Part shown: piece after piece, positions 1 through 20,599 of the stretch
Layout: each line of letters begins with the position of its first letter
Position numbering within the stretch: the stretch's first letter is position 1
Source: a virus
Lineage: Duplodnaviria > Caudoviricetes
DNA length: 25,510 bases
IMG/VR virus record: IMGVR_UViG_3300044723_003767
Coordinates: 1-25,510 of that record
Reading direction: 5' to 3' (one strand)
The notes under the pieces: model-generated
Told to the model about the DNA's origin: nothing
Database searches by the model: none
What the model saw: only the letters and a program-made list of their open reading frames with translations
Made by a program: the position numbers and the translations under genes

Positions 1-2
1 CT

Positions 3-1970
3 CCTGAGCGCGTCAAGTCTCAAAGGTACTTTGATGGTGAGGTTGATATTGGTTATGAGCCTGGGCGTTCTAGGGTAGTAGCTACTAAGGTCCGTGATAT
101 TGTCAGAGGCATCAAACCCTCACTAATGCGAATCTTTTTATCTTCTGAGCGACCTGTAGAGTTTATGCCTATGGGGCCAGAGGATGTTGCTAACGCTGAA
201 CAGGCAAATAGATATATGCACTGGAAGTTTGGCGAGATTGGCGGATATAAAGTTTTAAACGATGTATTCCATGATGCCTTGATTAAAAAGAATGGCATCG
301 TCAAAGTTTACTGGGAAACTTATGAGAAAGGAACTACGTACACCTTTAATGATTTGAATGACATGGAGTTCTCACTGATTGTCAATGAGGATGACATCGA
401 GGTTATTGAACACTCAGAAGAAACTAGCATAGAGATTGATGAAACCGGCATTGAGATTGAGGACACCAAGCACTCAATCAAGATTATCCGTAAAGAGGAA
501 GATGGCAGGCTTTGTGTTGAGTCTGTCCCACCTGAAGAATTCTTTGTAGACAGGAATGCTCGCTCTATTGATGATGCTTATGTTGTCTGCCAGAGAAGCG
601 AGATGCGTGTTGGTGATTTGGTTGAGATGGGCTATGACTTTGATGATGTAATTGAATTATCAGGCATCTCTGATTCTGCTTCACTGGTTGATGAGGAGCA
701 GTACGCTCGAAGCGGATTCTATCGTGACAGAGCTGAAGAAGATTATCGTGACCCATCAATGAAGATGGTGCTAGTCACTGAAGCTTATATGTATATGGAT
801 ATTGATGGTGCTGGTATCGCACAGCTTTACAAATTTATCTTGGGTGGTAGCTCATACAAGGTATTGGATTACGAACTGGCTGACGAGATTCCTTTTGCCG
901 TCTTTGAGTGCGACCCAGAGCCGCATACATTCTATGGTCGCTCAGTTGCCGATCTTATTCTTAATGACCAAGATGCCTGCACTTCTGTCCTTCGAGGTGT
1001 TTTGGACAACGTGGCACTAACCAACAATCCTCCTCTTGATGTGGTTGAAGATTTGGTAAACATGGATGATGTTCTGAACAATGAGATTGGAGCAATCCGC
1101 CGCATGAAGCAGATCGGAGCTATCCAGGCTAACCCTGTTCCTTTTGTTGCTGGTTCTACTCTGCCAGCACTTCAGTACATGGATGATCAGGTTGAGTCTA
1201 AGACAGGTGTATCAAGAGCGTCTATGGGGCTTGACCCAGATGCCTTGCAGAACGCTACCGCAACTGCTGTATCTATGACTATGAGCGCAGCAGCAGGACA
1301 GATTGAGGTTATCGCCAGAAACTTTGCTGAAGGTGGAATGAAACGGATGTTCAAGCTAATGCTTAATGAGATGACCAAAAATTCTGAAGATGAAGTAATC
1401 ATGAGATTGAATGGCCAGTTTATCCCTGTAGACCCTAGAGTCTGGAACAGCGACATGGACCTGACTATCAATGTTGGATTAGGTACTGGCAAAGAAGAAC
1501 AGAAGATGGTTGCCCTGAATAATACTTTACAGCAGCAGATGATGGTTTATCAAACATATGGACCGCAAAACGGATTAGTCACTATGACCAATATCCGCAA
1601 TACTCTTGGTGATATGCTTTCAATGTCTGGAATTAGAAATGCTGACAGATATTTTGCTCCAATGTCTCCTGAGATCGAGCAAATGTTACTGCAACAGGCT
1701 CAGGCAGCACAGCAGGCGGCAGCACAAGGCCAGGCTGATCCGAATCAGGCCTACCTACAGGCGGAGCAGATGAAGGCTCAGGCTAGAGCTGAGAGCGATA
1801 TGATGAAGATGCAGTTAGACGCTCAGAAGGCAGCCGCTAAAGATGACCTAGAACGAGACAAGATGGACCAAGACTTATTAATTAAAGGCGCAGAGGTTGT
1901 TGGCAAATACGGCACTGCTGTAGATGTTGCCAGAATCAAACAATTACAAAACGAGCCTAGAGGCATTTAA
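3..1970 (+). CDS. Portal protein (P22/SU10-like), 5'-truncated by window edge
   Basis: Frame is open from base 3 (PERVKSQRYFDGEVDIG...SRVVATKVRD...), so the ATG at 126 is internal. Motifs DALIKKNGIVKVYW, VPPEEF, PHTFYGRS and a Q-rich coiled-coil C-terminus. Lies upstream of scaffold and capsid. Confidence 0.92.
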   Translation, partial: PERVKSQRYFDGEVDIGYEPGRSRVVATKVRDIVRGIKPSLMRIFLSSERPVEFMPMGPEDVANAEQANRYMHWKFGEIGGYKVLNDVFHDALIKKNGIVKVYWETYEKGTTYTFNDLNDMEFSLIVNEDDIEVIEHSEETSIEIDETGIEIEDTKHSIKIIRKEEDGRLCVESVPPEEFFVDRNARSIDDAYVVCQRSEMRVGDLVEMGYDFDDVIELSGISDSASLVDEEQYARSGFYRDRAEEDYRDPSMKMVLVTEAYMYMDIDGAGIAQLYKFILGGSSYKVLDYELADEIPFAVFECDPEPHTFYGRSVADLILNDQDACTSVLRGVLDNVALTNNPPLDVVEDLVNMDDVLNNEIGAIRRMKQIGAIQANPVPFVAGSTLPALQYMDDQVESKTGVSRASMGLDPDALQNATATAVSMTMSAAAGQIEVIARNFAEGGMKRMFKLMLNEMTKNSEDEVIMRLNGQFIPVDPRVWNSDMDLTINVGLGTGKEEQKMVALNNTLQQQMMVYQTYGPQNGLVTMTNIRNTLGDMLSMSGIRNADRYFAPMSPEIEQMLLQQAQAAQQAAAQGQADPNQAYLQAEQMKAQARAESDMMKMQLDAQKAAAKDDLERDKMDQDLLIKGAEVVGKYGTAVDVARIKQLQNEPRGI

Positions 1971-2206
1971 TGGATGTAAAGCAAAAGGCTGCTAGAGCCA
2001 GAGAGCTATTGCATAACGAGTCATTCGTAAAAGTTATGGATGACATCAAAAAGGAACAGGTAAACAGATTTCTAAACTCTATTCCTACGGATACAGAGTT
2101 GAGAGAGCAAGCGCATTCAGTAGTGAATGCAATTAGAGTTATCGAGTCCTATCTCCAATCTGCAATAACAGACGAGAAGGTTTTCGATAAAAAACACAAT
2201 AAATAG
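1970..2206 (+). CDS. Small hypothetical protein between portal and scaffold
   Basis: 78 aa, helical, TAATG coupling to portal stop. Confidence 0.8.
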   Translation: MDVKQKAARARELLHNESFVKVMDDIKKEQVNRFLNSIPTDTELREQAHSVVNAIRVIESYLQSAITDEKVFDKKHNK

Positions 2207-2221
2207 GAGATCAGCACCGCT

Positions 2222-3208
2222 ATGTCGACTGACAATGACGGCACAATTGAGGCCGTAGCCAACAGCTTGTTGGCAAACATACCAGAACAAGAAAGTAACC
2301 TTGAGTCAGATACTCCCGAAGTGGAATCTGAAGATGTACAAGAAGAAATCTTGGATGAAGGTGATATGGAAGAATCTGATGAGACTGATGCTGACGAGGC
2401 AGAAGTTGATGAAGATGATTCCGAAGATGTAGCTGAAGAACTGGATGACGATGGTCAGGATGCCCTTGAAGTTTTTTCCGTCAAAGTAGATGGAGAGGAA
2501 GTTCAGGTAAGCATAGATGACCTAAAACGCTCTTACAGTGGTCAAGCTTACATTCAGAAAGGAATGCAAGAAGCTGCTAATCAGAAGAAAGAAGCTGAAG
2601 CAGTTTATCAAGCACTCCTTCAAGAGCGACAGCAAACTTCACAGCTTTTAAGCCAGATGCAATCTGGTGAGATGTTACAAGAGCCGCAAGCTCCAACTAA
2701 AGAACTGTTCAACAAGGACCCGATTGGGTACATGGAAGCCAAGATGCAGTACGATGAGGCTAAGTCCGAATTCGACAAGCAGCAAGCAACCATCCAACAG
2801 GCCCAAGCTCAACAGAATCAGCAGATGGAGTACGCAAGGCAGGTATATCTCAAGGAAGAAATGCAGAAACTTACTCAAGTTATCCCTGATTTTGCTGACC
2901 CTGAAAAGGCAGGCAAGATGAGAGATGATTTAGTACAAGGCGGAATGAAGTTAGGCTTCTCTGAGGCCGAGCTTGCAGAGGTATCAGACCACAGGGCCTT
3001 AGTAGCTTTGTATAAAGCTATGAAATACGATGAAATCGTAAATGGCAAAGAGAAGGCGGTTAATAAAACCAAGAACTCACGAAAGATGGTTAAGCCTGGA
3101 GCTAAGAAATCTGCATCACTCTCTAAAGTAAAAGCGCGTGAGCAAGCTGTTTCCAGAATGAAACAAACTGGTGACGTTAATGACGTTGCTAATTTTATAA
3201 TAAGCTAA
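2222..3208 (+). CDS. Head scaffolding protein
   Basis: Very acidic N-terminus, VKVDGEEVQVSIDDLKRSY motif, coiled coil, basic C-terminus, directly before the capsid gene. Confidence 0.88.
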   Translation: MSTDNDGTIEAVANSLLANIPEQESNLESDTPEVESEDVQEEILDEGDMEESDETDADEAEVDEDDSEDVAEELDDDGQDALEVFSVKVDGEEVQVSIDDLKRSYSGQAYIQKGMQEAANQKKEAEAVYQALLQERQQTSQLLSQMQSGEMLQEPQAPTKELFNKDPIGYMEAKMQYDEAKSEFDKQQATIQQAQAQQNQQMEYARQVYLKEEMQKLTQVIPDFADPEKAGKMRDDLVQGGMKLGFSEAELAEVSDHRALVALYKAMKYDEIVNGKEKAVNKTKNSRKMVKPGAKKSASLSKVKAREQAVSRMKQTGDVNDVANFIIS

Positions 3209-3227
3209 CTTTAAGAGGTAATAAAAA

Positions 3228-4199
3228 ATGGGCGTATCAGCTAATACTGTTGAAACCTATGATAGCTCAGTCATCCGTGAAGATTTACAAGATGCTCTGA
3301 TTTCTATCTCTCCAACCGAAACACCTTTCATGTCTGCTATTGGCCGAAGAAATGTTGCCAATACTTATTTTGAGTGGGGTGTTGTATCTTTAACTGCCGC
3401 CGATAGCTCTAACCGAGTTATTGAAGGCGAAGCCGCTCCAGGTAATGACGCATTAACTGCTGCTGTACGTCAGGGCAACTATACTCAGATTTCTGATAAA
3501 GTTGTTGAAGTATCTGACACTGCTGAAGCTGTTAATGGCGCAGGCAACGAGCAGACTATTGCTAAACAGATCGCTTACAAGCTGAAAGAGCTTAAACGCG
3601 ATATGGAAACCATGCTTACAGCTAACGTAGCTGCTTCTGCTGGTGCTTCTGGAACTGCTCGTCAGACTGCTGGACTTCCAGCTTTCTTGCGCACTAATGC
3701 TAGTAGAGCTGGTGATGGTGCTGATGGGACTACTTCTGGTTCTGGTGATTCTGGATATGTTGATGCTGCTGCTACCGATGGTACACAGCGTGACGTAACT
3801 GAGGACCTGTTGAAATCTGTTATTGCCCAGTGCTGGGATGCAGGTGCAGAGCCTTCAGTTGTTATCTGCGGATCAGGCGTTAAGCAGGAAATCTCTACTT
3901 TCACTGGTAATGCTACTAAGTACAAAGATATCACTGACAAAACTTTGTCAGCCGCTATTGATGTATATGTAAGTGACTTCGGTGAGCTAACTATCGTTCC
4001 AGATCGTTTTTCTCGCGGTCGCGATTGTTTAGTTCTTGACCCGAACTATGCTCGTGTAGCTTATCTGAAACCTACTACTCAGAAACCACTTGCTCGCACT
4101 GGTCACAGTGAGCGCAGACTGATTTCTGTAGAGTATGGCTTACAGATAGATAACGAAGCAGCACATGGTATCGTTGCTGACGTTAACACTAGCTACTAA
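3228..4199 (+). CDS. Major capsid protein (DUF5309/SU10-type)
   Basis: REDL..ISPTETPF, NYTQI, ELKRDME and YVSDFG motifs. RBS AAGAGG. Terminator downstream. Confidence 0.93.
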   Translation: MGVSANTVETYDSSVIREDLQDALISISPTETPFMSAIGRRNVANTYFEWGVVSLTAADSSNRVIEGEAAPGNDALTAAVRQGNYTQISDKVVEVSDTAEAVNGAGNEQTIAKQIAYKLKELKRDMETMLTANVAASAGASGTARQTAGLPAFLRTNASRAGDGADGTTSGSGDSGYVDAAATDGTQRDVTEDLLKSVIAQCWDAGAEPSVVICGSGVKQEISTFTGNATKYKDITDKTLSAAIDVYVSDFGELTIVPDRFSRGRDCLVLDPNYARVAYLKPTTQKPLARTGHSERRLISVEYGLQIDNEAAHGIVADVNTSY

Positions 4200-4217
4200 T
4201 CATAGCTAACTAATGAT

Positions 4218-4244
4218 GGGGAGCTTTGGCTCCCCTGATTTTTT
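4218..4244 (+). terminator. Intrinsic terminator after capsid gene
   Basis: GGGGAGC-TTTG-GCTCCCC stem followed by TGATTTTTT. Confidence 0.85.
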
Positions 4245-4253
4245 GGAGATTAA

Positions 4254-4544
4254 ATGAAAGACTCAATAATCAAAGAAAAAATGCAAGAGGAAGATGGGAA
4301 GCTTCATATCGTAAGACAGCAGGATGTCTCAGAGATTTTAAAAATGACAAAGCATCTTCGGGATGTATCTCCATCAAGAAAGGGTGATGCAAACTGGAGG
4401 TTAGCAGGAAAAATACCATTAGTTATTGCTGAACAGTGGTCAAGAGAGTGTAAAGCTGGCATTGGCACACAAGAGTTTGCCGCATATGTTAAGAAGAAAT
4501 TACAGGATAGCGATTGGGCTTATTTGCGCGTTAGGGGTTACTAG
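4254..4544 (+). CDS. Hypothetical phage protein (post-capsid)
   Basis: 96 aa, RBS GGAG, WRLAGKIPLVIAEQW motif of the type commonly seen just after this capsid family. Confidence 0.8.
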   Translation: MKDSIIKEKMQEEDGKLHIVRQQDVSEILKMTKHLRDVSPSRKGDANWRLAGKIPLVIAEQWSRECKAGIGTQEFAAYVKKKLQDSDWAYLRVRGY

Positions 4545-5118
4545 CCTATTTGCGCAAACTCAGACAGGTGATTTGAATACTAATAATGTCAACTCAACTG
4601 TCAATAGCGAAAATCCAGACAATTCTGTTGTAAATAACTTCAATGGTGCTGGCTCTGCTTCTAGGGTAACACCAGTGCCATCGGCCATTACGCCAAGCTA
4701 TATTTTCAACGGAAGCGATAGCTGCTTGATAGGAACGGGCGCAGGGATACAGCTAGACGTACTAGGCTTCAGCATTGGCGGCTATAAGCAAGATGATGAG
4801 TGTAACCGAAGGCGTGACGCTAGAGCTTTAAACGACTTAGGTATGCAGATAGCAGCAATAAGCCGTTTATGCCAATCAGATGAGAATTGGACTGCAATGT
4901 TCAAAGCAGGAACTTATTGCCCTGTTATGGTAAGAGGAAGCCTGATGGTAGGCAGGCAAGCGTATTTTGCAATGAGGCGTGACCCAGAATTATTGATACC
5001 GAACTATCGGCAAGACAGAGAGTTTTATGATGCCGTACTTGGCATAGGAGTTGAAGATGAAGAAAGCACTAACGACACTCGCAGTATCTCTGAGCGTTTC
5101 AGGACAAGCATACGCTGA
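4486..5118 (+). CDS. Putative exported protein with four cysteines
   Basis: Start re-assigned to ATG 4486, giving a Sec-type signal MLRRNYRIAIGLICALGVTSLFA|Q. N-rich linker, then DSCL/DECN/LCQ/YCP. Confidence 0.78.
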   Translation: MLRRNYRIAIGLICALGVTSLFAQTQTGDLNTNNVNSTVNSENPDNSVVNNFNGAGSASRVTPVPSAITPSYIFNGSDSCLIGTGAGIQLDVLGFSIGGYKQDDECNRRRDARALNDLGMQIAAISRLCQSDENWTAMFKAGTYCPVMVRGSLMVGRQAYFAMRRDPELLIPNYRQDREFYDAVLGIGVEDEESTNDTRSISERFRTSIR

Positions 5119-5824
5119 TGAAATCTCAGACCTTGTCAATGCGAGCAACTCGCTCATTACCACGATTGATAATGGACAGTATGCTGTGTCTGGTCTTGCA
5201 TACTATGCTGGTATTGGTGGGATTGCTGAGTCTAATACGATTGACTCCGCTATTATATCGCAGGCTCAGATGGATGCTTATAATACTGCACTGGCAGATG
5301 TCCAGGCGGCCACCTATTATAATGCGCAGATGTTTTTTGAAGACCAAGCGGATATTGCGCTTGAACAGATGAGCTTGGCTGTTGACGACTTTGTAGATGC
5401 GACCAGCGCGATGTCTCAGGTCATTACTGTTTTCGATATGGCATCAAATGCTACCGATACAGATACACAACTTGCCTTGCAGTCTTATGTAACTGATAAC
5501 GCCCTGTCCATTACTCAGGGGCAGGTATTGGAATACAACGATTCACTTGAAAGTGTACAGACCTACTCACAGATGGCTGCTGCTTTTGTTCAGGCAAGTC
5601 AGAATGATTTTATTACCCAGACTGTTGACCAGCAGAGTCAAGACTTCAATGTGTCTTTGTTTGAGACAACCGCCACTTATACGCAATCCACTGATCACAT
5701 GATGCTGACTTGGGCGCAGACAAATGAGTCTATGGGTTTTATGAATTTCTTCCAAAACGACATGAAATCAGCTCTGGATGTGATGGGCGTAGGTCAAAGT
5801 ATTTACGAAGGTCAGAAATTGTAA
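5051..5824 (+). CDS. Putative exported acidic helical protein
   Basis: Signal peptide MKKALTTLAVSLSVSGQAYA|D (A-x-A site). Mature region is D/Q/A/T rich and nearly lacks K/R. Confidence 0.8.
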   Translation: MKMKKALTTLAVSLSVSGQAYADEISDLVNASNSLITTIDNGQYAVSGLAYYAGIGGIAESNTIDSAIISQAQMDAYNTALADVQAATYYNAQMFFEDQADIALEQMSLAVDDFVDATSAMSQVITVFDMASNATDTDTQLALQSYVTDNALSITQGQVLEYNDSLESVQTYSQMAAAFVQASQNDFITQTVDQQSQDFNVSLFETTATYTQSTDHMMLTWAQTNESMGFMNFFQNDMKSALDVMGVGQSIYEGQKL

Positions 5825-6375
5825 TGCTGGATGAGGCTGAAGTCAGTGTTGGTGGCTTCAAGCTCAAGGGTGCTTGGATTATTGTTGCTTTATCTATCCT
5901 AGCACCTGTCGCTGGCGGTATCTGGACTGCTGCCGAGTTCTTTGGTCGCATCGATTCGCTGGAAGGCTCTGTATCAGAATTTACCATTCCTGACATTTCT
6001 CCGTTGCAAGAACAACTCTCTGTTATGCGCTCAGAGCTTGATACAGTGCGCTCAGAGGTAGGCGGTACAGGAGTACGTCTTGACACCAGAATCGCTGTTA
6101 TTGAGGAACAGATGGACTCACAAGATGTATCCCAGCTACAAGGCAGATTAGCTGAACTTGCTACCAACCTTCAGACCATTATGAATCAGCAACAACAACT
6201 ACTAGATTTGCGAGATAGGGTAGAAGCTGCCGAGCGTATAGTGCTTGAAAATCAACGACTTTCAGAGGATACTTTGGATTCCATTCAAGAATTTGAACAG
6301 GATGTTGACCGCTTTGCCCAAGAAGTAGAAGATTTATGGGAAGCATTTGACGCGGTATCCAATCCACTGAGATGA
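5824..6375 (+). CDS. Membrane-anchored coiled-coil protein
   Basis: One N-terminal TM segment (AWIIVALSILAPVAGGIW) then heptad-rich helix. TAATG coupling. Confidence 0.8.
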   Translation: MLDEAEVSVGGFKLKGAWIIVALSILAPVAGGIWTAAEFFGRIDSLEGSVSEFTIPDISPLQEQLSVMRSELDTVRSEVGGTGVRLDTRIAVIEEQMDSQDVSQLQGRLAELATNLQTIMNQQQQLLDLRDRVEAAERIVLENQRLSEDTLDSIQEFEQDVDRFAQEVEDLWEAFDAVSNPLR

Positions 6376-6385
6376 GAGTAAAAGC

Positions 6386-7645
6386 ATGACACAACTACCG
6401 ACAAAAAACACTTGGGATTGGCTTTCTGTTCCTGACGAAGCTGAAGAAATATTTGTCAATTATCCCACTCGCTGGTATTGGGTGAAAAAAAACCAAGAAA
6501 GAATCAAGAAAGGCATTTCCATGTCTGAGATGGCTCAATCTCATAATATTAATATGCGCTCCATGCAAAGGCAGCTTGCCTTCTCGAAAGAGATGCTTCT
6601 CAAGCATGGAATTGACTGCACAATTTCAGAGCCAATGTATAATGCTGTACCTGCTCCACATTACCTTAAAGGTCAGTCTACCTACTATAAAATAAATCCA
6701 GAGACAGGCGAGAAAACTGCCGTCGCTCAGTGGCACAAGACCGACATTGACCGAGAGCGCAAAGAGCAGCCGTTTAAGGATTTTGTTGCTGACGCTGTTC
6801 AAGGCATCAAGCCATTTCCATTAGTTAAGCAACCTAAGTCGGCTCCGAAAGATGCAGACAAATGCACTGTCTACACTCTGACGGATTTCCATCTGGGTAT
6901 GTATGCTTGGGCAGACGAAACTGGTAATGATTGGGACATGGAAATTGCTGAAAAGGTTATGCTTGGAGCTTTCCAAGATATGATGGATGGCTCGCCAGAT
7001 TCCGAGCAAGCTGTATTCGCCCAGCTAGGTGATTTGCTTCACTGGGATGGTATGCTTTTCCAGCCAGTTACAAGCTCTGGTAAAAATGTCCTTGATGCCG
7101 ACACAAGATTCCCAAGACTCGTTCAGTCAGCAATCAATTTGATGATAAAAGCTGTCGAGATGCTTCTTCACAAGCACAAGCAGGTTCATGTGATTATGGC
7201 TGAAGGAAATCACGACCAAGCAAGCTCAGTATGGCTCAGAGCTATCATGGGTGCAATGTTCGCTAAGAATAAAAGAGTCACTGTAGAGTTAAGCCCATTC
7301 CCTTACTACGTCTACAGGTTTGAGGACTGCTTTCTGGCTTGGCATCATGGTCACCTGACTCGCAAGCTGGAAGATTTGCCATTGAGATTTGCGACTGAAT
7401 GGCGTGATGATTTTGGAAAGTGTAAGTGGACATATATTCACACAGGACACCACCATACTAAGCAAGTCATCGAGAAGGCTGGGATATTCATTGAGCAGCA
7501 TCCTACTCTGTCTGCCAGAGATGCTTACGCAGCAAGAAATTTCATGATGGCGCAAAGAGGCGCATCTGCAATAACATACGCAAAAGGTGTAGGGGAATAC
7601 TCTCGCATTACAGTGCGCCCCAAAATTGATGTAAAAAGTGTATAA
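6386..7645 (+). CDS. Calcineurin-like metallophosphoesterase with N-terminal HTH-like region
   Basis: All five motifs present: DFH, GDLLH, GNHD, HHGH, GHHH. GISMSEMAQSHNINMRSMQRQL resembles an HTH. Confidence 0.85.
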   Translation: MTQLPTKNTWDWLSVPDEAEEIFVNYPTRWYWVKKNQERIKKGISMSEMAQSHNINMRSMQRQLAFSKEMLLKHGIDCTISEPMYNAVPAPHYLKGQSTYYKINPETGEKTAVAQWHKTDIDRERKEQPFKDFVADAVQGIKPFPLVKQPKSAPKDADKCTVYTLTDFHLGMYAWADETGNDWDMEIAEKVMLGAFQDMMDGSPDSEQAVFAQLGDLLHWDGMLFQPVTSSGKNVLDADTRFPRLVQSAINLMIKAVEMLLHKHKQVHVIMAEGNHDQASSVWLRAIMGAMFAKNKRVTVELSPFPYYVYRFEDCFLAWHHGHLTRKLEDLPLRFATEWRDDFGKCKWTYIHTGHHHTKQVIEKAGIFIEQHPTLSARDAYAARNFMMAQRGASAITYAKGVGEYSRITVRPKIDVKSV

Positions 7646-7652
7646 TACGCTC

Positions 7653-7934
7653 ATGGCTAAAGACACAAGATTAGAGCGGAACAACCTTGCAGGCTTCAAC
7701 AAGCCCAAAAGAACACCGAATCACCCAACTAAAAGTCATGTGGTGTTAGCCAAAGAAGGCGATCAGACTAAGCTTATTCGTTTCGGCCAGCAAGGTGTAT
7801 CTGGATCGCCTGCCCGTAAAGGTGAGAGCAGTGCAAATGCGGCCAGACGTAAATCTTTTAAGGCTCGCCATGCTAAAAATATTGCTAAAGGCAAGATGAG
7901 TGCAGCATATTGGGCTAACAAGGTGAAATGGTAA
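7653..7934 (+). CDS. Small basic phage protein (IRFGQQG / SFKARH / SAAYWA family)
   Basis: K/R-rich 93 aa. ATG 7653 preferred over GTG 7638. TATAAT at 7641-7646 lies just upstream. Confidence 0.8.
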   Translation: MAKDTRLERNNLAGFNKPKRTPNHPTKSHVVLAKEGDQTKLIRFGQQGVSGSPARKGESSANAARRKSFKARHAKNIAKGKMSAAYWANKVKW

Positions 7935-8101
7935 TGCCAGGTAAAGGTTTGTACGCAAATATTAACGCAAAGCGAAAAAGAATAACTTCTCAGAAAGCTC
8001 GCGGCGCAAAGAAAGTTGAAAGAATGAGAAGCCCCGGCAGCAAAGGCGCACCAACTGCCTCAGCTTTTCGCAAAGCTAAAAAGACTGCCAAGAAAAAATA
8101 G
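7934..8101 (+). CDS. Small highly basic protein (55 aa, not in ORF track)
   Basis: MPGKGLYANINAKRKRITSQKARGAKKVERMRSPGSKGAPTASAFRKAKKTAKKK. TAATG coupling. Confidence 0.8.
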   Translation: MPGKGLYANINAKRKRITSQKARGAKKVERMRSPGSKGAPTASAFRKAKKTAKKK

Positions 8102-8102
8102 C

Positions 8103-8276
8103 ATGAACAACGAGCAGAAAATAGAAATGCTCATGAGTATATGCGCTTACACTGGTGGCGAATGGACACCAGAAGATTGCTATGAATTTTATTGCTATAT
8201 CTATGACGAGCTTGAAGAACAAAAACCTAAACCAGACATAAGAGTAATTGAAAGTGGACCCACAGACACTCATTAA
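8103..8276 (+). CDS. Small acidic hypothetical protein (57 aa, not in ORF track)
   Basis: MNNEQKIEMLMSICAYTGGEWTPEDCYEFYCYIYDELEEQKPKPDIRVIESGPTDTH fills the gap between its neighbours. Confidence 0.65.
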   Translation: MNNEQKIEMLMSICAYTGGEWTPEDCYEFYCYIYDELEEQKPKPDIRVIESGPTDTH

Positions 8277-8466
8277 CTTTGCATTTAGTATTATCGCCGC
8301 TGGTTGCGGCTGGATCATCAAATCTATCTACGATGCGATGAAGTCTCTGGAAAAAGAGGTCCACATAGAATACGTCAGGAAAGATGATTTCCGAGAGGAC
8401 ATGAAGGAAGTAAAAGAGATGCTAAATGCCATCTTCAAACGCTTAGATAATAAGGCGGATAAATGA
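8254..8466 (+). CDS. Single-TM holin-like/lysis-associated protein
   Basis: N-terminal TM plus charged helix (YVRKDDFREDM...RLDNKADK). GTG start assumed. Heads the lysis cassette. Confidence 0.65.
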   Translation: MDPQTLINFAFSIIAAGCGWIIKSIYDAMKSLEKEVHIEYVRKDDFREDMKEVKEMLNAIFKRLDNKADK

Positions 8467-8576
8467 AAAAGCTTGGATACGCTATCACAATATTTCTTTG
8501 CAAATTAACTGACAAGCAAGCTGGCTATTTGTTCACTGCAATAGCAGCTCTCATCATTGGATTAGGTATTTTATGA
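8463..8576 (+). CDS. 37-aa membrane peptide (not in ORF track)
   Basis: MKKLGYAITIFLCKLTDKQAGYLFTAIAALIIGLGIL. ATGA overlaps at both ends. Confidence 0.7.
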   Translation: MKKLGYAITIFLCKLTDKQAGYLFTAIAALIIGLGIL

Positions 8577-9052
8577 AATTCTCTGCAATAAAAGGTCTTG
8601 TTGGTGCTGTTGCTCCCACTCTCGGTGCTGCTTTGGGCGGACCAGTAGGCGGTGCTGCAATGCAAGTTGTTTCTCAGGTTCTAGGATGCAAGCCAGATGA
8701 GCGCAGCGTAGAGCAGGCTATATCTCAAGCAAGTGCAGAGGACTTGGCAAAGATTCGTGAGGCAGAGCTTGAATTTGAGGCTAAGATGCAGCAGATGGAA
8801 GTAGATGTTTTTGCGCTCGAAACTCAAGACCGCCAATCTGCACGATCTCACTTCGCAAAGGATTGGACCGCAAGAGCTTTGGCAATTTCATTGATGCTTC
8901 TATTTGCAACATATATCATTCTGGTTACTGTTTTGCCCAACGATCTAATCGGCAATGAGGCCACGATAAATCTGATATTAGGAAGCATAACCGGAAGCTT
9001 CTCGACAGTGGTTGCATTTTATTTTGGCAGTTCGCAGAAACAAGATGACTGA
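8573..9052 (+). CDS. Holin (3TM/GTA-type)
   Basis: VAPTLGAALGGPVGG N-terminus, DRQSAR motif, two C-terminal TMs ending FYFGSS, adjacent to lysozyme. Confidence 0.8.
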   Translation: MKFSAIKGLVGAVAPTLGAALGGPVGGAAMQVVSQVLGCKPDERSVEQAISQASAEDLAKIREAELEFEAKMQQMEVDVFALETQDRQSARSHFAKDWTARALAISLMLLFATYIILVTVLPNDLIGNEATINLILGSITGSFSTVVAFYFGSSQKQDD

Positions 9053-9479
9053 TAATATCGTAAAACTCCTGCGCCATCACGAAGGCGTAAAAGCTCATGC
9101 GTACAAGTGTACTGCCAACAAGATAACTGTCGGCGTTGGTCGCAATATTGATCCTGAAGGCGGCTTAGGGCTTTTTGACGATGAGATAGACTATATGCTG
9201 ACCAATGACATTAATAGAGTCATAAAGGAGCTAGGAGAGGCTTTTCCTTGGTTTTCAGGGCTTGATGAAGCTAGAAGGGATGCCATGATAGATATCTGCT
9301 TTAACTTAGGTATGCCGAGGCTTAAAGGCTTTGCAAAAGCTCTATCTGCTATGGCAAGTGAAGATTACGAAATTGCGGCGTATGAGTTTTCAGACTCAGC
9401 TTGGTTCAAGCAAGTCGGTAATAGGGCGCAGACCATTGTTGATATGATCCGCTTTGGTAAGTACCCAGACCTACCTTGA
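9045..9479 (+). CDS. Endolysin, GH24 (T4-like) lysozyme
   Basis: HEG..AYKC....TVGVGRN catalytic region, FNLG and QVGNRA motifs. ATG 9045 preferred. Confidence 0.9.
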   Translation: MTDNIVKLLRHHEGVKAHAYKCTANKITVGVGRNIDPEGGLGLFDDEIDYMLTNDINRVIKELGEAFPWFSGLDEARRDAMIDICFNLGMPRLKGFAKALSAMASEDYEIAAYEFSDSAWFKQVGNRAQTIVDMIRFGKYPDLP

Positions 9480-10550: not shown

Positions 10551-10923
10551 TACCCTCTGTCTCCAGACACATCTAGGCTTTTTCCCCTGAGAAGAGCTAA
10601 CCTGCTGGGGTTATGCTCCAATCACCTGACCTAAGTCAAAACGCCCTTCGGCGTGGTACTCATTCCCGATCCACAAAGATGAACCGACCCTGTACTGCTC
10701 AATCCAGCATAGCTCACACCCTGCCAACCACGTTGCTTCTCAGGTTCTCGTTGACAAGCCTAGTCAGAGCGAGAATTTATGGGTGCTTGCCTGTCGCATT
10801 TCTGCCGCTATCTTTAAAGTCTATAGCTAGACATTAGCCGTGAGGAAGTCAGGCTTTGCCACACTTTTCTTGGTGAGTTGCTAATCGTTGAGGATTGCTG
10901 AAAATATCACTAACTCCCAAGAG
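10551..10923 (-). ncRNA. Putative large structured RNA / long 5' leader of ninG operon
   Basis: No credible ORF. Nested helices 10586-10594/10736-10744, 10594-10599/10710-10715, 10603-10608/10704-10709, 10745-10750/10770-10775, plus several hairpins. G-U pairing favours the minus strand. Confidence 0.65.
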
Positions 10924-10929
10924 GCACTT

Positions 10930-10980
10930 ATCATACTGAAATATTACAAAAAAATAAAATATTTTTTTTGCTTTGAAAAA
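10930..10980 (-). promoter_or_regulatory. Putative leftward promoter
   Basis: TATGAT (10935-10930), weak TTTATT 17 bp upstream, A/T tracts resembling an UP element. Confidence 0.45.
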
Positions 10981-10997
10981 ATACCCGTTAAAATAAT

Positions 10998-11026
10998 TTG
11001 CGGAACAGTCTGTGTTAGTGCATACT
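10998..11026 (+). promoter_or_regulatory. Putative sigma70 promoter for the small RNA
   Basis: TTGCGG-17-CATACT. Confidence 0.55.
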
Positions 11027-11032
11027 TTGATT

Positions 11033-11109
11033 TCCATGTTCTCCCTTAGCATGGCTTTGTCTCCAACAAAGTAAAGCCCTTGTTAGCCTGAACTAGCAGG
11101 GGCTTTTTT
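11033..11109 (+). ncRNA. Putative small regulatory RNA with two anti-SD (CUCC) loops
   Basis: Three consecutive hairpins: CCATG-TTCTCCCTTAG-CATGG, CTTTGT-CTCCA-ACAAAG, and a terminator. Confidence 0.7.
11073..11109 (+). terminator. Intrinsic terminator
   Basis: AAAGCCCTTGTTAG-CCTGAA-CTAGCAGGGGCTTT with G-U pairs on the + strand, ending in T6. Confidence 0.85.
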
Positions 11110-11113
11110 AATC

Positions 11114-11155
11114 CAATCAAAAAAGTTTGCAATCTTAATCGAATTAGTTTACGCT
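11114..11155 (+). promoter_or_regulatory. Early promoter with two overlapping operator-like palindromes
   Basis: TTGCAA(11127)-17-TACGCT(11150). CAATC-N6-GTTTG and TAATC-N6-GTTTA. Confidence 0.7.
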
Positions 11156-11186
11156 TGCATCTTAACTAATAAAACTGGAGACAAAG

Positions 11187-11768
11187 ATGAAAACTAGCGA
11201 ATCAATCGCTGCGCTCGCAGCAGCACTATGTAAAGCACAATCAGAGATGGGCGGAGCTGCAAAGTCAGCAGACAACCCGTTCTTCAAATCAAAATATGCG
11301 GACCTTAGTTCTGTTGTCCAAGCAGTTAAGCAGCCTTTTGCTGACAATGGCTTGAGCTATGTCCAGTTCCCCATTTCAACTCAGTCAGCTATCGGTGTGG
11401 TCACAAGACTGATGCACGAAAGTGGCGAGTGGATGGAGCAGGATTATTACTTGCCATTGCAGAAGCTCGACCCACAGGCAGCAGGTTCAGCAATCACTTA
11501 CGCAAGACGCTATTCACTTCAAGCTGTTGCTGGAATCCCTGCTGAAGATGATGATGGTGAAAGCTCAATGTTGCGTGGCAATCCTAAAACAATCACTGGT
11601 GTGCAGGTAGAATCTTTATACGATGCGCTGGAAGAATCGGATTCAGATTTGGAAAAGTTTCTGAAGGCATTTAAAAAACAATCGCTTGAAGAATTCACCG
11701 AACCTGAGTACATCCGCGCTCTACAGATGATTGAAATGAAGAAGGGGAAATCTAATGAGAATATCTAA
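11187..11768 (+). CDS. erf: ERF-family single-strand annealing protein
   Basis: NPFFKSKYADL, HESGEW, PQAAGSAITYARRYSL and EDDDG signatures. Confidence 0.95.
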   Translation: MKTSESIAALAAALCKAQSEMGGAAKSADNPFFKSKYADLSSVVQAVKQPFADNGLSYVQFPISTQSAIGVVTRLMHESGEWMEQDYYLPLQKLDPQAAGSAITYARRYSLQAVAGIPAEDDDGESSMLRGNPKTITGVQVESLYDALEESDSDLEKFLKAFKKQSLEEFTEPEYIRALQMIEMKKGKSNENI

Positions 11769-12366
11769 ATTTGAGCAACGAACCCCAGAATGGTTTGCAG
11801 ATAGGATTGGCGTACCTTCTGCATCACAGTTCCATAAAATAATCACACCAACAGGTCAGGCAAGCAAGCAGGTTGATGGCTATATCAATGAGCTGGTAGC
11901 CGAGAAGGTTACGCAGCAGCAAGCCTATGTGCATGAGACTGAGGCAATGAAGCGTGGTACTGAGCTGGAGCCAATGGCAAGGGAGAACTTTGAATTTATC
12001 ACTGACTATTCTGTCAGCGAGATTGGATTCTGCAAGCACGATAAGCTGGAAATCGGCTGTTCGCCAGATGGCGTGATTGACCTTCCAGACGGAAAGGTAG
12101 CTGTCTTAGAAATAAAATGCCCGATGGCGAACACGATGGTTGAGTATCTTCGAGATGGAATCCTGCCGCCAAAGTATAAGCCTCAAGTGCAGGGCCAGCT
12201 ATGGATTACCGAAGCTGACCATGCGTATTTTTTTGCATTTCATCCTGAATTTGTTGGATTGCTGATTAAGGTGGAGCGCGATCAAGATTTTATTCAAAAA
12301 CTAAGCACACTATCCTACGAGATGATCCAAAAAATTGAAAAGCTCGCAAAAGAGTACAAAGTATGA
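11755..12366 (+). CDS. YqaJ/lambda-exonuclease family nuclease
   Basis: EQRTPEW, SAS, RGTELEP.AR, CSPDG, EIKCP, Y.PQVQGQL. Confidence 0.93.
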   Translation: MRISKFEQRTPEWFADRIGVPSASQFHKIITPTGQASKQVDGYINELVAEKVTQQQAYVHETEAMKRGTELEPMARENFEFITDYSVSEIGFCKHDKLEIGCSPDGVIDLPDGKVAVLEIKCPMANTMVEYLRDGILPPKYKPQVQGQLWITEADHAYFFAFHPEFVGLLIKVERDQDFIQKLSTLSYEMIQKIEKLAKEYKV

Positions 12367-12569
12367 GCTACATGACTATATTCAGCATGAGGTACAAAGA
12401 CAAGTATGGCAAAGAGCTTGAGAAAGAGCCTTTAGAATTACAAAACATATACAAAACAGGATATGTCGATGCGATAGAAATTTTTCAAAACCAGCTAAAC
12501 CTGATTTTGCAAGATGTACAAAACTCACCAACTTACACAATAGAGGAAAATAAAAATGACGAATTATGA
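12363..12569 (+). CDS. Hypothetical protein
   Basis: 68 aa, ATGA coupling. Confidence 0.6.
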   Translation: MSYMTIFSMRYKDKYGKELEKEPLELQNIYKTGYVDAIEIFQNQLNLILQDVQNSPTYTIEENKNDEL

Positions 12570-12801
12570 TAATAACAATCGCGGAGCTATCTGGAAAAAT
12601 GACCGCAAAACAACAGACAAGCACCCAGACTTTACTGGAGCAATAACAGTTGATGGTAAAGATTATTGGCTATCAGCTTGGCGTGGCGATAAAGAAAACC
12701 CCAAAGCACCAACGCTATCATTTAGTGTCCAGGCAAAAGATGTGCCTAAACAGCAGCCAACTCCAAACTTGAACGAGGATTTTGATGATGCCCCATTCTA
12801 A
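12556..12801 (+). CDS. Small single-stranded DNA-binding-like protein
   Basis: GAIWKN..K..HPDFTG...YWLSAW core and an SSB-type acidic tail DFDDAPF. Sits next to ERF and the exonuclease. Confidence 0.75.
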   Translation: MTNYDNNNRGAIWKNDRKTTDKHPDFTGAITVDGKDYWLSAWRGDKENPKAPTLSFSVQAKDVPKQQPTPNLNEDFDDAPF

Positions 12802-13000
12802 TGTAGACTTTGGTAAATGTGTAAGGGCTGCACAGGCTATGCGCAGATATACTAACAAGCAGATAGGTGATGGACTAGGGACAACACCCCAGCAAGTCTC
12901 TAGGTTTAGGAATAATACCGACTGCAAAATAAATGTTGCGATCAGCTTGGCTCATTTTTTTGAGCTATCTTTACAAGAGATGCTGAACCTTGACAAATAA
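12785..13000 (+). CDS. XRE/Cro-type helix-turn-helix regulator
   Basis: TNKQIGDGLGTTPQQVSRF...ISLAHFFELSLQEM. Start is 12785 or 12788. Confidence 0.85.
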   Translation: MMPHSNVDFGKCVRAAQAMRRYTNKQIGDGLGTTPQQVSRFRNNTDCKINVAISLAHFFELSLQEMLNLDK

Positions 13001-13199
13001 AAAACAAAAACATCTGGACCAGCTTGCTGCCGACATTGCGGCCTATCTCAAAAAGGGCGGGAAGATTACTACCTTGCCTAGCGGGGAAACAGAGATGACT
13101 TGGCGGAGCAGGCTTAATCCAGATGCAACAAAAAATTCTGGAGATGAAGATGCAAACGTGGACAGTAAAAAACGAAGAAAGCCTAAACTTTCTGATTGA
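12990..13199 (+). CDS. SutA-like RNA-polymerase-binding domain protein
   Basis: KQKHLDQLAADIAAYLKKGGKITTL resembles the K.K....LA.....FL..GGK(V/I) core of Pseudomonas SutA. Confidence 0.65.
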   Translation: MTNKKQKHLDQLAADIAAYLKKGGKITTLPSGETEMTWRSRLNPDATKNSGDEDANVDSKKRRKPKLSD

Positions 13200-15343: not shown

Positions 15344-15389
15344 TAAACAAAAATGTTGACATAATGTGAATTATAAACGATAATGTTTA
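15344..15389 (+). promoter_or_regulatory. Near-consensus sigma70 promoter with two operator-like palindromes
   Basis: TTGACA(15356)-17-GATAAT(15379). TAAAC-N6-GTTGA and TAAAC-N6-GTTTA overlap -35 and -10. Confidence 0.85.
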
Positions 15390-15430
15390 CATGGTTGGCG
15401 AGGTGCTGACCCAAACTTGGAGATAAAGAC

Positions 15431-15735: not shown

Positions 15736-15749
15736 GCACAAGGATGTGC
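15736..15749 (+). promoter_or_regulatory. CsrA/RsmA-type binding hairpin
   Basis: GCACA-AGGA-TGTGC, intergenic, immediately before an RBS. Confidence 0.65.
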
Positions 15750-15764: not shown

Positions 15765-15980
15765 ATGACACACCAAGAAATTAAAGAGATAGCATGTAAC
15801 AACGGAGATTTAACTATAGAGCAGTTAGTTAAAATCTCTAACCTCCCAGCAGCAGAAGTTTTAAGAGCTGTAGCTGGATCACCTTGGGGACAGTGGTTGA
15901 TCAATAACTATGTATGTTATGAGAGCGCACACATTGGCTTTGATGCTGAAGATTTTGACAACCCTTTGTTCGGGAGATAA
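15765..15980 (+). CDS. Hypothetical protein, possible HTH
   Basis: RBS AGGAG. LTIEQLVKISNLPAAEV. Confidence 0.65.
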   Translation: MTHQEIKEIACNNGDLTIEQLVKISNLPAAEVLRAVAGSPWGQWLINNYVCYESAHIGFDAEDFDNPLFGR

Positions 15981-15982
15981 AC

Positions 15983-16496: not shown

Positions 16497-16514
16497 TGGG
16501 GCAAGGATGCTCCA
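16497..16514 (+). promoter_or_regulatory. Second CsrA/RsmA-type hairpin
   Basis: TGGGGCA-AGGA-TGCTCCA, intergenic. Confidence 0.6.
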
Positions 16515-16978: not shown

Positions 16979-17111
16979 GAATGGCTATCCTACAGAAAAT
17001 CCAGTCCTGTTTGAGCAAATAGTTAAGCTGATTCGTATTTTGGAAACACAAGGGTACGGCATAAGCTTTAGCGATGTAGAAAACGAAAATTCAATTGTGA
17101 GGCGAAGATGA
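16929..17111 (+). CDS. Hypothetical protein
   Basis: 60 aa, ATGA overlap with terS. Confidence 0.55.
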   Translation: MDIAPLTREEIKYLLNENGYPTENPVLFEQIVKLIRILETQGYGISFSDVENENSIVRRR

Positions 17112-18813: not shown

Positions 18814-18845
18814 TGCTATAATCGCCTCATGTGATTTACGAGGCG
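18814..18845 (+). promoter_or_regulatory. Extended -10 promoter with RBS-sequestering hairpin
   Basis: TGCTATAAT 18814-18822. CGCCTC(18823-28) pairs with GAGGCG(18840-45). Confidence 0.65.
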
Positions 18846-20340: not shown

Positions 20341-20530
20341 TGCAGAAATATTCAGGTTTAAATAAAGATGCTTTTTCTTTGCCGCACATCTCAGTAAGCT
20401 CTGCGACAACATCTTGAACATCCATAAGCGGCCTGCCAATCCAAGATTTTTTAACCTCAATCATCATTAGATGATCATAAATCTCTTTTGGTATTTTTGC
20501 TTCGGTATTTATCATTGGTAATAGTTTCAT
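20330..20530 (-). CDS. Small convergent hypothetical protein (66 aa)
   Basis: RBS GGAGG, ATG 20530, own promoter, 11-nt tail-to-tail overlap with the 496-aa gene. Confidence 0.75.
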   Translation of the reverse strand: MKLLPMINTEAKIPKEIYDHLMMIEVKKSWIGRPLMDVQDVVAELTEMCGKEKASLFKPEYFCIID

Positions 20531-20590: not shown

Positions 20591-20599
20591 TGCTATAAT
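20591..20599 (+). promoter_or_regulatory. Extended -10 promoter for tail operon
   Basis: TGCTATAAT, identical to the 18814 element. Confidence 0.65.

What the first reader, a model, noticed from the sequence alone, without database searches (positions are those of the whole stretch)
10998..11109. Putative anti-Shine-Dalgarno sRNA that matches the first gene of four phage transcription units
Seen: a promoter-like TTGCGG-17-CATACT, then ~77 nt made entirely of three hairpins. Two present CUCC in their loops and the third is an intrinsic terminator. The second hairpin's 5' arm and loop (CUUUGUCUCCAA, 11055-11066) is complementary to the RBS plus spacer of four genes: erf (TGGAGACAAAG 11176-11186, 11/11), ninG (TGGAGACAGAG, minus 10565-10555, one G-U), ORF 15431 (TTGGAGATAAAG 15417-15428, 12 nt, one G-U), and the convergent ORF 20530 (TTGGAGGCAAA, minus 20542-20532, one G-U). 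Each is the first gene behind its own predicted promoter. Capsid and adaptor RBSs (AAGAGGTAA) do not match. Established analogies: P1/P7 C4 and P4 CI immunity RNAs, and cuckoo RNAs with anti-SD loops. Inference: an RNA master repressor for early-gene shut-off, lysogeny or superinfection immunity. Caveat: GGAG alone would match by chance; the informative part is the extension into the spacer.
Basis: partly seen in the sequence, partly recalled or inferred. Interest (0 to 1): 0.9.

Follow-up and report, generated by a model that had tools for sequence, protein, structure and literature searches.

The report
Phage small RNA targeting early genes
An estuarine phage carries a conserved 77-base three-hairpin stretch, likely a small RNA gene, whose middle hairpin is complementary to the ribosome-binding sites of several of the phage's own predicted early genes, so it likely turns their translation down together, a predicted RNA-based switch for the early programme.

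Summary
The element is kept in 7 related contigs; every stem change keeps pairing on the + strand and the 11-nt seed never varies. The match is not chance: 5 of 17 GGAG starts in the window pair over 11 or more bases, against 0 of 721 elsewhere. I add ninB as a fifth site; in relatives the matched site stays while the genes behind it are swapped. An unrelated phage group carries a similar RNA with a different seed, and each seed fits only its own group's sites. The 'first gene only' rule fails, and nothing supports lysogeny or immunity (no integrase or repressor hit; record 73% complete). Best reading: a trans-acting anti-Shine-Dalgarno sRNA that damps early genes, an RNA counterpart of T4 RegB. 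Transcription and repression are untested; no seed change occurs within the family, and the host is unknown. It is not C4, cuckoo or any Rfam family at threshold. The scan noted CUCC-loop RNAs on other DNA before, but not this sequence.

The parts
10998..11026 (+). Predicted sigma70-type promoter of the sRNA (TTGCGG-17-CATACT)
   Evidence: spacing kept in 8 of 8 sequences, -10 reads CATAAT in 4 of 8; below the scan's threshold
11033..11109 (+). Predicted sRNA, about 77 nt, three hairpins
   Evidence: Fold z -4.84; covariance model finds the window and 7 relatives at 89-109 bits, next hit 19.7 bits
11034..11054 (+). Hairpin 1 with a C-rich loop that varies among relatives
   Evidence: no matching start region found in the window
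11055..11071 (+). Hairpin 2; the seed is its 5' arm and loop, 11055-11066
   Evidence: 0 of 11 columns vary at 11055-11065; opening cost 3.9 kcal/mol
11073..11109 (+). Predicted intrinsic terminator (14-bp stem, U6 tail)
   Evidence: G-U pairs and the U tail are on the + strand; not listed by the scan
11127..11155 (+). Predicted erf promoter (TTGCAA-17-TACGCT), near-palindromic
   Evidence: Kept in 8 of 8 sequences; 2 of the 8 were found with this pattern
11176..11186 (+). Predicted target: RBS of erf (11 of 11 Watson-Crick)
   Evidence: net -12.8 kcal/mol; kept in front of a Sak-type gene in relatives
10555..10565 (-). Predicted target: RBS of ninG; likely a fusion of two matched RBSs after loss of an 80-aa gene
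   Evidence: (net -9.1)
13139..13149 (+).
   Evidence: net only -4.4; 11 nt also in L049, L055, L069
15417..15428 (+). Predicted target: RBS of ORF 15431, behind TTGACA-17-GATAAT at 15356-15384
   Evidence: net -11.7; same cassette in front of other genes in L049, L152, L196
20532..20542 (-). Predicted target: RBS of the 66-aa ORF that starts at 20530
   Evidence: net -8.2; no difference listed there among the 40 of 44 rows shown
15973..15981 (+). Weaker candidate target: RBS of the 37-aa ORF 15983 (9 nt)
   Evidence: net -5.4
17099..17107 (+). Weaker candidate target: terS RBS (9 nt, lacks the first G of GGAG)
   Evidence: net -4.2; 9 Watson-Crick pairs at this site in L049, read

Best explanation
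The element is likely a phage-encoded trans-acting small RNA, predicted to be made from its own promoter and ended by its own terminator, whose hairpin-2 seed is complementary to the Shine-Dalgarno and spacer of at least five of the phage's predicted early genes and would block ribosome loading on them together. Shown: the structure, its conservation, + strand polarity of the stems, and specific complementarity to start regions. Inferred: (1) the unpaired CUCCA loop nucleates on GGAG; (2) the weak 6-bp stem (3.9 kcal/mol) melts and the U-rich arm zips along the spacer almost to the start codon, giving 11-12 bp; (3) 30S loading is blocked, and transcripts whose first gene is silenced probably also decay faster or terminate early; (4) because the RNA lacks the TGnTATAAT motif seen before two late-block genes, it probably builds up from early infection and works as a delayed brake that tapers recombination and accessory genes while structural genes, whose RBSs do not match, stay on.
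For: Fold z -4.84 on + against -1.78 on -. In 5 distinct sequences, 6 of 25 pairs change on one side (all to or from G-U) and 1 on both; none is broken except by gaps. The 7 relatives were found by protein or promoter queries that do not contain the seed. Across both strands the five best non-self sites are all start regions (P = 2e-5 given that 17 of 131 GGAG are at starts). 7 of 41 family RBSs against 0 of 721 background reach 11 nt. None of 4,062 natural CUCC 12-mers in 61 other loci matches 3 own RBSs at 11 nt; this seed matches 5. 6 of 22 early against 0 of 25 late starts reach 9 nt, p = 0.007. Held-out contig L196: 4 of 5 GGAG starts match over 10-12 nt. L002 (erf 95%, exonuclease 91% identical) has neither the RNA nor the motif in 8.2 kb. 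Reciprocal fit with an unrelated group: seed A 8 of 27 own and 0 of 35 foreign orthogroups at 10 nt; seed B 7 of 35 own and 0 of 27 foreign.
Against: No transcript or repression data. No seed change at 11055-11065 inside the family, so there is no direct compensatory seed/target change; only three main sequence types exist and only one stem pair changes on both sides. The 3' arms of hairpins 1 and 3 are about as invariant as the seed (1 of 7, 1 of 17). Several sites belong to one shared promoter-RBS cassette and are not independent. The early/late split is mine, and 20530 was called early on orientation alone; over all duplex energies the split gives p = 0.051, and GGAG is itself commoner at early starts (11 of 22 against 6 of 25). 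ninB's net energy is weak (-4.4). The erf site drops to 8 nt in L049. Family B was found with a pattern holding part of its seed, and its UAAGGAG is the canonical SD. L002 is a fragment, so the RNA could lie elsewhere in it.
Confidence: 0.62

Rival explanations
1. Same pairing, but the purpose is lysogeny or superinfection immunity: a resident phage makes the RNA to silence early genes of itself or of incoming kin, as P1/P7 C4 does.
For: The targets head early units; the seed is lineage-specific, as immunity determinants are; the promoter needs only host polymerase (inferred).
Against: No integrase, CI-type repressor or antirepressor hit among 46 ORFs; the only HTH is 71 aa and below Pfam's cut-off; none of 22 pattern hits in GTDB genomes has the three-hairpin context. 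The seed is invariant across relatives about 78% identical, whereas C4 differs between P1 and P7 (heteroimmunity, PMC12197685). The record is only 73% complete, so this is not excluded.
Confidence: 0.12
2. The repeated RBS comes from shuffled promoter-RBS cassettes, and the RNA is a generic CU-rich sRNA aimed at host mRNAs; the match to phage genes is a by-product.
For: One cassette heads different genes in the window, L049, L152 and L196; genes are swapped at the start codon. The best Rfam likenesses are host CU-rich sRNAs (anti-hemB 26.3 bits; toxic sRNA 18.6 bits, sharing UGUCUCC).
Against: Matched sites lie in at least five unrelated flanks, including ninB and ninG sites inside upstream coding regions. 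A shared cassette does not explain why its complement sits in a separate RNA loop: 0 of 4,062 control 12-mers do this. Family B repeats the pattern with its own code. Host targets could not be tested because the host is unknown.
Confidence: 0.12
3. The pairing protects or activates rather than represses, for example by shielding GGAG from a RegB-like nuclease or from CsrA/RsmA.
For: The target motif resembles the T4 RegB consensus GGAGRAYARAA (PMC3014915), offset by one base; CsrA-like GGA hairpins lie next to two early-region starts (consensus recalled).
Against: The duplex covers the SD and the spacer up to 0-3 nt from the start codon, which would exclude the 30S subunit; no RegB-like hit in the window.
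Confidence: 0.07
4. The functional strand is the minus strand: either a GGA-loop decoy for CsrA/RsmA, or the RBS and start of a small leftward ORF (10852-11052), with a leftward promoter overlapping the palindromic erf promoter.
For: The minus strand reads as a full matched RBS plus ATG and shows GGAG in two loops; the erf promoter is near-palindromic.
Against: The ORF is 67, 35, 67, 67, 11, 11, 33 and 33 aa in the 8 sequences, with unrelated tails, and has no PHROGs or Pfam hit. The minus fold is weaker (z -1.78); the G-U pairs become A-C mismatches there; the U tail is on +.
Confidence: 0.05

Closest known systems
T4 RegB endoribonuclease (PMC3014915, passages read)
   Same: Same predicted outcome and nearly the same address: inactivation of early phage mRNAs at GGAG plus an A-rich 3' spacer, with late mRNAs spared.
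   Different: RegB is a protein nuclease that needs S1; here a base-pairing RNA would read the site. No RegB-like gene was found.
P1/P7 C4 antisense RNA (PMC12197685 parts 1-4 of 6; PMC8198154 passages)
   Same: Phage-encoded, loop-presented seed, acts at a ribosome-binding region of the phage's own mRNA.
   Different: C4 controls one operon (icd-ant) for immunity; here there are many dispersed early-region starts, no antirepressor hit and no Rfam C4 hit.
Burkholderia double-hairpin 'toxic' sRNAs RF02278 and anti-hemB RF02837 (PMC5688073, PMC4603805 passages)
   Same: Short multi-hairpin RNAs with CU-rich unpaired seeds predicted to cover RBSs; RF02278's consensus starts with UGUCUCC; anti-hemB has the same three-hairpin layout.
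   Different: Scores are far below gathering (18.6 of 50; 26.3 of 49.5); they are chromosomal host regulators, while this one is in a phage and fits phage RBSs.
Cuckoo / alpha-r14 RNAs (PMC4615179 passages)
   Same: 2-4 adjacent hairpins with C-rich anti-SD loops.
   Different: Cuckoo loops each carry CCUCCUCCC with variable stems; here no loop has it, and the predicted specificity lies in a stem arm.
Other phage sRNAs: P22 sar, lambda OOP, aQ and PreS, VP882 VpdS, 24B_1 (PMC12197685)
   Same: Phage-encoded riboregulators of development.
   Different: As described in the parts read, they are cis-antisense, single-target or host-directed; none addresses a shared RBS code on many of the phage's own early genes.

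Membership tests
Trans-encoded base-pairing anti-SD sRNA (broad class) | Discrete non-coding unit with promoter, conserved structure and intrinsic terminator | tested here: met
   the promoter is supported by conservation only
Trans-encoded base-pairing anti-SD sRNA (broad class) | Short conserved seed complementary to several distant start regions beyond chance | tested here: met
Trans-encoded base-pairing anti-SD sRNA (broad class) | Transcribed, and represses targets by pairing (often with Hfq) | not testable with these tools
   Needs RNA data and reporters
P1/P7 C4 RNA | Match to an Rfam C4 model | tested here: not met
   No C4 row at E up to 1 or up to 10
P1/P7 C4 RNA | Targets an antirepressor operon for immunity | tested here: not met
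   No antirepressor hit among 46 ORFs; targets are erf, ninG, ninB and unknown ORFs; 27% of the genome is missing
P4 CI RNA | Processed from the leader that it regulates (recalled, from no call) | tested here: inconclusive
   The element has its own predicted promoter and terminator and dispersed targets; processing cannot be tested
Cuckoo / alpha-r14 | CCUCCUCCC in each hairpin loop | tested here: not met
   Loops in 8 of 8 sequences lack it; definition from PMC4615179; no Rfam row
Betaproteobacteria toxic sRNA RF02278 | Score at or above gathering (50 bits) | tested here: not met
   18.6 bits, E 0.38
Betaproteobacteria toxic sRNA RF02278 | CU-rich seed complementary to RBSs | tested here: met
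   UGUCUCC is shared; PMC5688073
anti-hemB RF02837 | Score at or above gathering (49.5 bits) | tested here: not met
   26.3 bits, E 5.7e-4 on 661 nt; absent from the whole-window scan

The most novel reading that the evidence does not exclude
Unrelated phages have repeatedly built an RNA-addressed early regulon: one short sRNA carries a lineage-specific seed, and any gene placed behind the matching RBS, including freshly swapped-in cargo, comes under its control. This would be an RNA counterpart of T4 RegB, seen here in two phage groups with reciprocal seed/RBS codes.
Probability: 0.4. Interest if true: 0.88.

Novelty: new variant of a known kind. Interest (0 to 1): 0.76.

Why it matters
How small phages that rely on host polymerase switch early genes off is poorly known; the textbook post-transcriptional answer is a protein (T4 RegB or RegA). 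A 77-nt RNA with a readable address in the RBS would be a compact alternative. It predicts which unknown genes are early, and it can be tested with simple reporters and compensatory mutations. The search recipe (promoter, CUCC hairpin, terminator, then fit to the phage's own RBSs) already gave a second, unrelated phage group, so the design may be widespread.

Tried and rejected
No RNA holder was listed among 14 sequencing runs. Rfam: nothing at gathering for the window region or for 6 other loci. GenBank phages: one 34-nt hit at E 0.05, ignored; best capsid relatives 46% or less, so no host could be assigned. GTDB pattern: 22 hits, none with the three-hairpin context. Leader pattern: 6 hits, 4 known and 2 chance. 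Promoter patterns: 3 of 16 metagenome and 5 of 19 viral hits were real; only L148 and L152 were new. Cassette pattern: 6 hits, 1 known, 1 new (L196), 4 chance. The model R1 found no distant homolog in 165 sources and does not detect family B. Minus-strand ORF rejected. Hairpin 1 has no start-region match in the window; 10-11-nt matches in the leader of L148/L152 only. Of 9 other single loci or groups, only L094 showed a long self-match. Atlas searches for ORFs 20530 and 15431 gave nothing usable. IntaRNA was not available; RNAduplex plus opening energies stood in. Nine paper searches were answered; no listing described a phage sRNA acting on many own early RBSs, but most subscription papers and the review's supplementary table of 38 uncharacterised phage sRNAs were not seen.

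Full report
Setting. The window is a whole IMG/VR virus record, 73% complete, held in estuary metagenomes (9 of 14 listed runs hold half or more of the sampled words). PHROGs (46 ORFs) gives portal, scaffold, capsid and lysis genes at 1-9479, a leftward ninG unit, a rightward erf-exonuclease-ssb-ninB-helicase unit from 11187, small unknown ORFs, then terminase and virion genes. No integrase, repressor or antirepressor was hit. The host is unknown; a SutA RNAP-binding domain in ORF 12990 hints at a gammaproteobacterium (recalled association).

The element. The promoter-like hexamers, three hairpins and U tail are at the stated places: -30.9 kcal/mol, z -4.84, against z -1.78 for the opposite strand. 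The consensus scan did not list this promoter, the erf promoter or hairpin 3, so these rest on fold and conservation. Seven related contigs carry the element: four from an erf protein query (4 of 65 loci), one from an exonuclease query and two from an erf-promoter pattern; none of these queries held the seed. A covariance model separates them (89-109 bits) from everything else in 94 sources (19.7 bits at most). They give five distinct RNAs of three main types. Of 25 pairs, 6 change on one side, always to or from G-U, 1 changes on both sides, and none breaks except at gaps. G-U pairs at shifting positions favour the + strand. The seed has 0 of 11 variable columns, against 16 of 36 upstream and 12 of 21 downstream, but the 3' arms of hairpins 1 and 3 are nearly as constant. 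The one change beside the seed (11066 A to G in L148/L152) keeps both the stem pair and the target pair as wobbles. In L148/L152 the unit follows the helicase gene instead, so it travels with the SSAP promoter and not with the leftward unit. The minus-strand ORF that starts in the element is not conserved.

The targets. Among 47 starts that I curated, five pair over 11-12 contiguous bases: ninG, erf, 15431, ninB and 20530; 15983 pairs over 9. ninB and 15983 are new and internal. With CUCC fixed, 12 of 65,536 seeds reach five such sites. Because A-rich spacers could favour U-rich seeds, I used real starts as background: 0 of 721 GGAG starts from 157 other loci reach 11 nt and 8 reach 10, against 7 and 11 of 41 in the family; the element's own antisense site was dropped from the family count. 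Across both strands 22 sites pair over 9 nt or more, and the five best apart from the element's own complement are all starts (P = 2e-5). As a look-elsewhere control, none of 4,062 natural CUCC 12-mers in 61 other loci matches three own starts at 11 nt. Net energies after opening both RNAs are -12.8 (erf), -11.7 (15431), -9.1 (ninG), -8.2 (20530), -5.4 (15983), -4.4 (ninB), -4.2 (terS), -1.4 (4254), +0.7 (MCP) and +4.8 (20621) kcal/mol. Six of 22 early-region and 0 of 25 late starts reach 9 nt (p = 0.007), but the classes are mine, GGAG is commoner at early starts (11 of 22 against 6 of 25), and the all-energy comparison gives p = 0.051.

Relatives. The matched RBS stays while genes change: a Sak-type gene replaces erf, other ORFs replace 15431, and L152 has four consecutive ORFs of 50 aa or more with 10-12-nt matches. 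L049, L050 and L069 have an 80-aa gene before ninG, and both starts match; the window's ninG site reads as a fusion of the two across the shared core. Held-out L196 has 4 of 5 GGAG starts matched, though it does not reach the RNA locus. L002, with erf 95% and exonuclease 91% identical, lacks the RNA at that place and has no motif site in 8,249 bases; it is a fragment. Against: the erf site falls to 8 nt in L049, some sites share one cassette, and no seed variant exists to show direct compensation.

A second group. A loose pattern (57 hits) gave 17 contigs of an unrelated phage group (only a 27%-identical helicase shared among the four compared) with a promoter-like TTTAC(A/T)-17-TATCTT, a hairpin with UGUCUCCUUAAC in its loop, and a terminator-like end. 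By orthogroup, seed A matches 8 of 27 own, 0 of 35 foreign and 6 of 540 background starts at 10 nt; seed B matches 7 of 35 own, 0 of 27 foreign and 12 of 540. The pattern preselected part of seed B, its free part pairs with the canonical UAAGGAG, and the model R1 does not detect it, so this is a parallel, not proven homology.

Mechanism. Shown: structure, polarity, conservation and specific complementarity. Inferred: loop nucleation on GGAG, melting of the 3.9 kcal/mol stem, an 11-12-bp duplex ending 0-3 nt before the start codon in four of the five sites (5 nt for ninG), and blocked initiation. Timing is inferred from the lack of the TGnTATAAT motif found before 18850 and 20621. I put 0.62 on a brake for early genes, 0.12 on immunity, 0.12 on a host-directed RNA with incidental matches, 0.07 on protection and 0.05 on a minus-strand function.

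Comparison. No Rfam family reaches threshold; the best are anti-hemB (26.3 of 49.5 bits) and the betaproteobacterial toxic sRNA (18.6 of 50), both CU-rich. Papers: PMC5688073 and PMC4603805 (passages) describe those RNAs as predicted RBS binders; PMC4615179 (passages) defines cuckoo by CCUCCUCCC loops, absent here; PMC8198154 (passages) and PMC12197685 (parts 1-4 of 6; supplement not seen) describe C4 as controlling ant, and the review lists no phage sRNA acting on many own early starts; PMC3014915 (passages) gives RegB's consensus GGAGRAYARAA on early mRNAs, the closest functional parallel. P4 CI, CsrA and Yfr1 details are recalled. The scan's earlier notes hold CUCC-loop RNAs on other DNA and nothing on this sequence or genome.

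Verdict. A real and uncatalogued element with strong computational evidence for self-targeting; it works like CU-rich anti-SD sRNAs but is a member of no named family. New variant of a known kind; interest 0.76. Expression and repression remain to be shown.

Noticed in passing
window 10566-10900 (-); L049, L050, L152: A conserved non-coding leader of about 330 nt precedes the ninG unit here and the helicase in L148/L152. RNAalifold on 4 sequences gives 17 of 85 pairs changed on both sides, but the single-sequence fold is not better than shuffles (z 0.09) and Rfam has no hit. Candidate second ncRNA or origin.
   Followed up: partly
window 12990-13199 (+): 69-aa ORF with a SutA RNAP-binding domain above Pfam's cut-off (35.2 bits, E 8e-9); only 2 homologs found. 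Possible phage modulator of host RNA polymerase.
   Followed up: partly
window 15738-15747 and 16501-16510 (+); L152: Small hairpins with an AAGGAU loop that fit the CsrA/RsmA site (consensus recalled) lie before early-region starts; in L152 two sit just before seed-matched RBSs.
   Followed up: no
window 11127-11160: The erf promoter is a near-palindrome and could be a repressor operator or a bidirectional promoter; the 71-aa HTH ORF at 12785 is a candidate binder.
   Followed up: no
window 18814-18822 and 20591-20599 (+): TGCTATAAT before two late-block genes, a candidate late promoter motif.
   Followed up: no
window 11187-12802 against L002, L049, L055: erf and the exonuclease look swapped in from an L002-like phage exactly at the start codon, replacing a Sak-type gene.
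   Followed up: partly
L121:8190-8300 and 16 related loci (family B): Unrelated phage group with a promoter-like site, a UGUCUCCUUAAC-loop hairpin and a terminator-like end that fits its own RBSs; no Rfam hit at gathering.
   Followed up: partly
L148 and L152, leader before the helicase: Hairpin 1 of this sequence type has two 10-11-nt matches in the conserved leader; the other types have none.
   Followed up: partly
L089, L090, L103, L104, L117, L127: A structured element with a CUCCCC segment complementary to GGGGAG repeats on both sides, one being the RBS of the next gene; possible cis switch. No Rfam hit for L104.
   Followed up: no
L083 and related 58-59-nt hits; L094:7018-7074; L107, L130: Further promoter/hairpin/terminator-like units with UGUCUCC: a group with a CUCCUCACAC loop resembling cyanobacterial Yfr1 (recalled; no Rfam hit at gathering), and L094, whose 15-nt match is its own opposite strand.
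   Followed up: no
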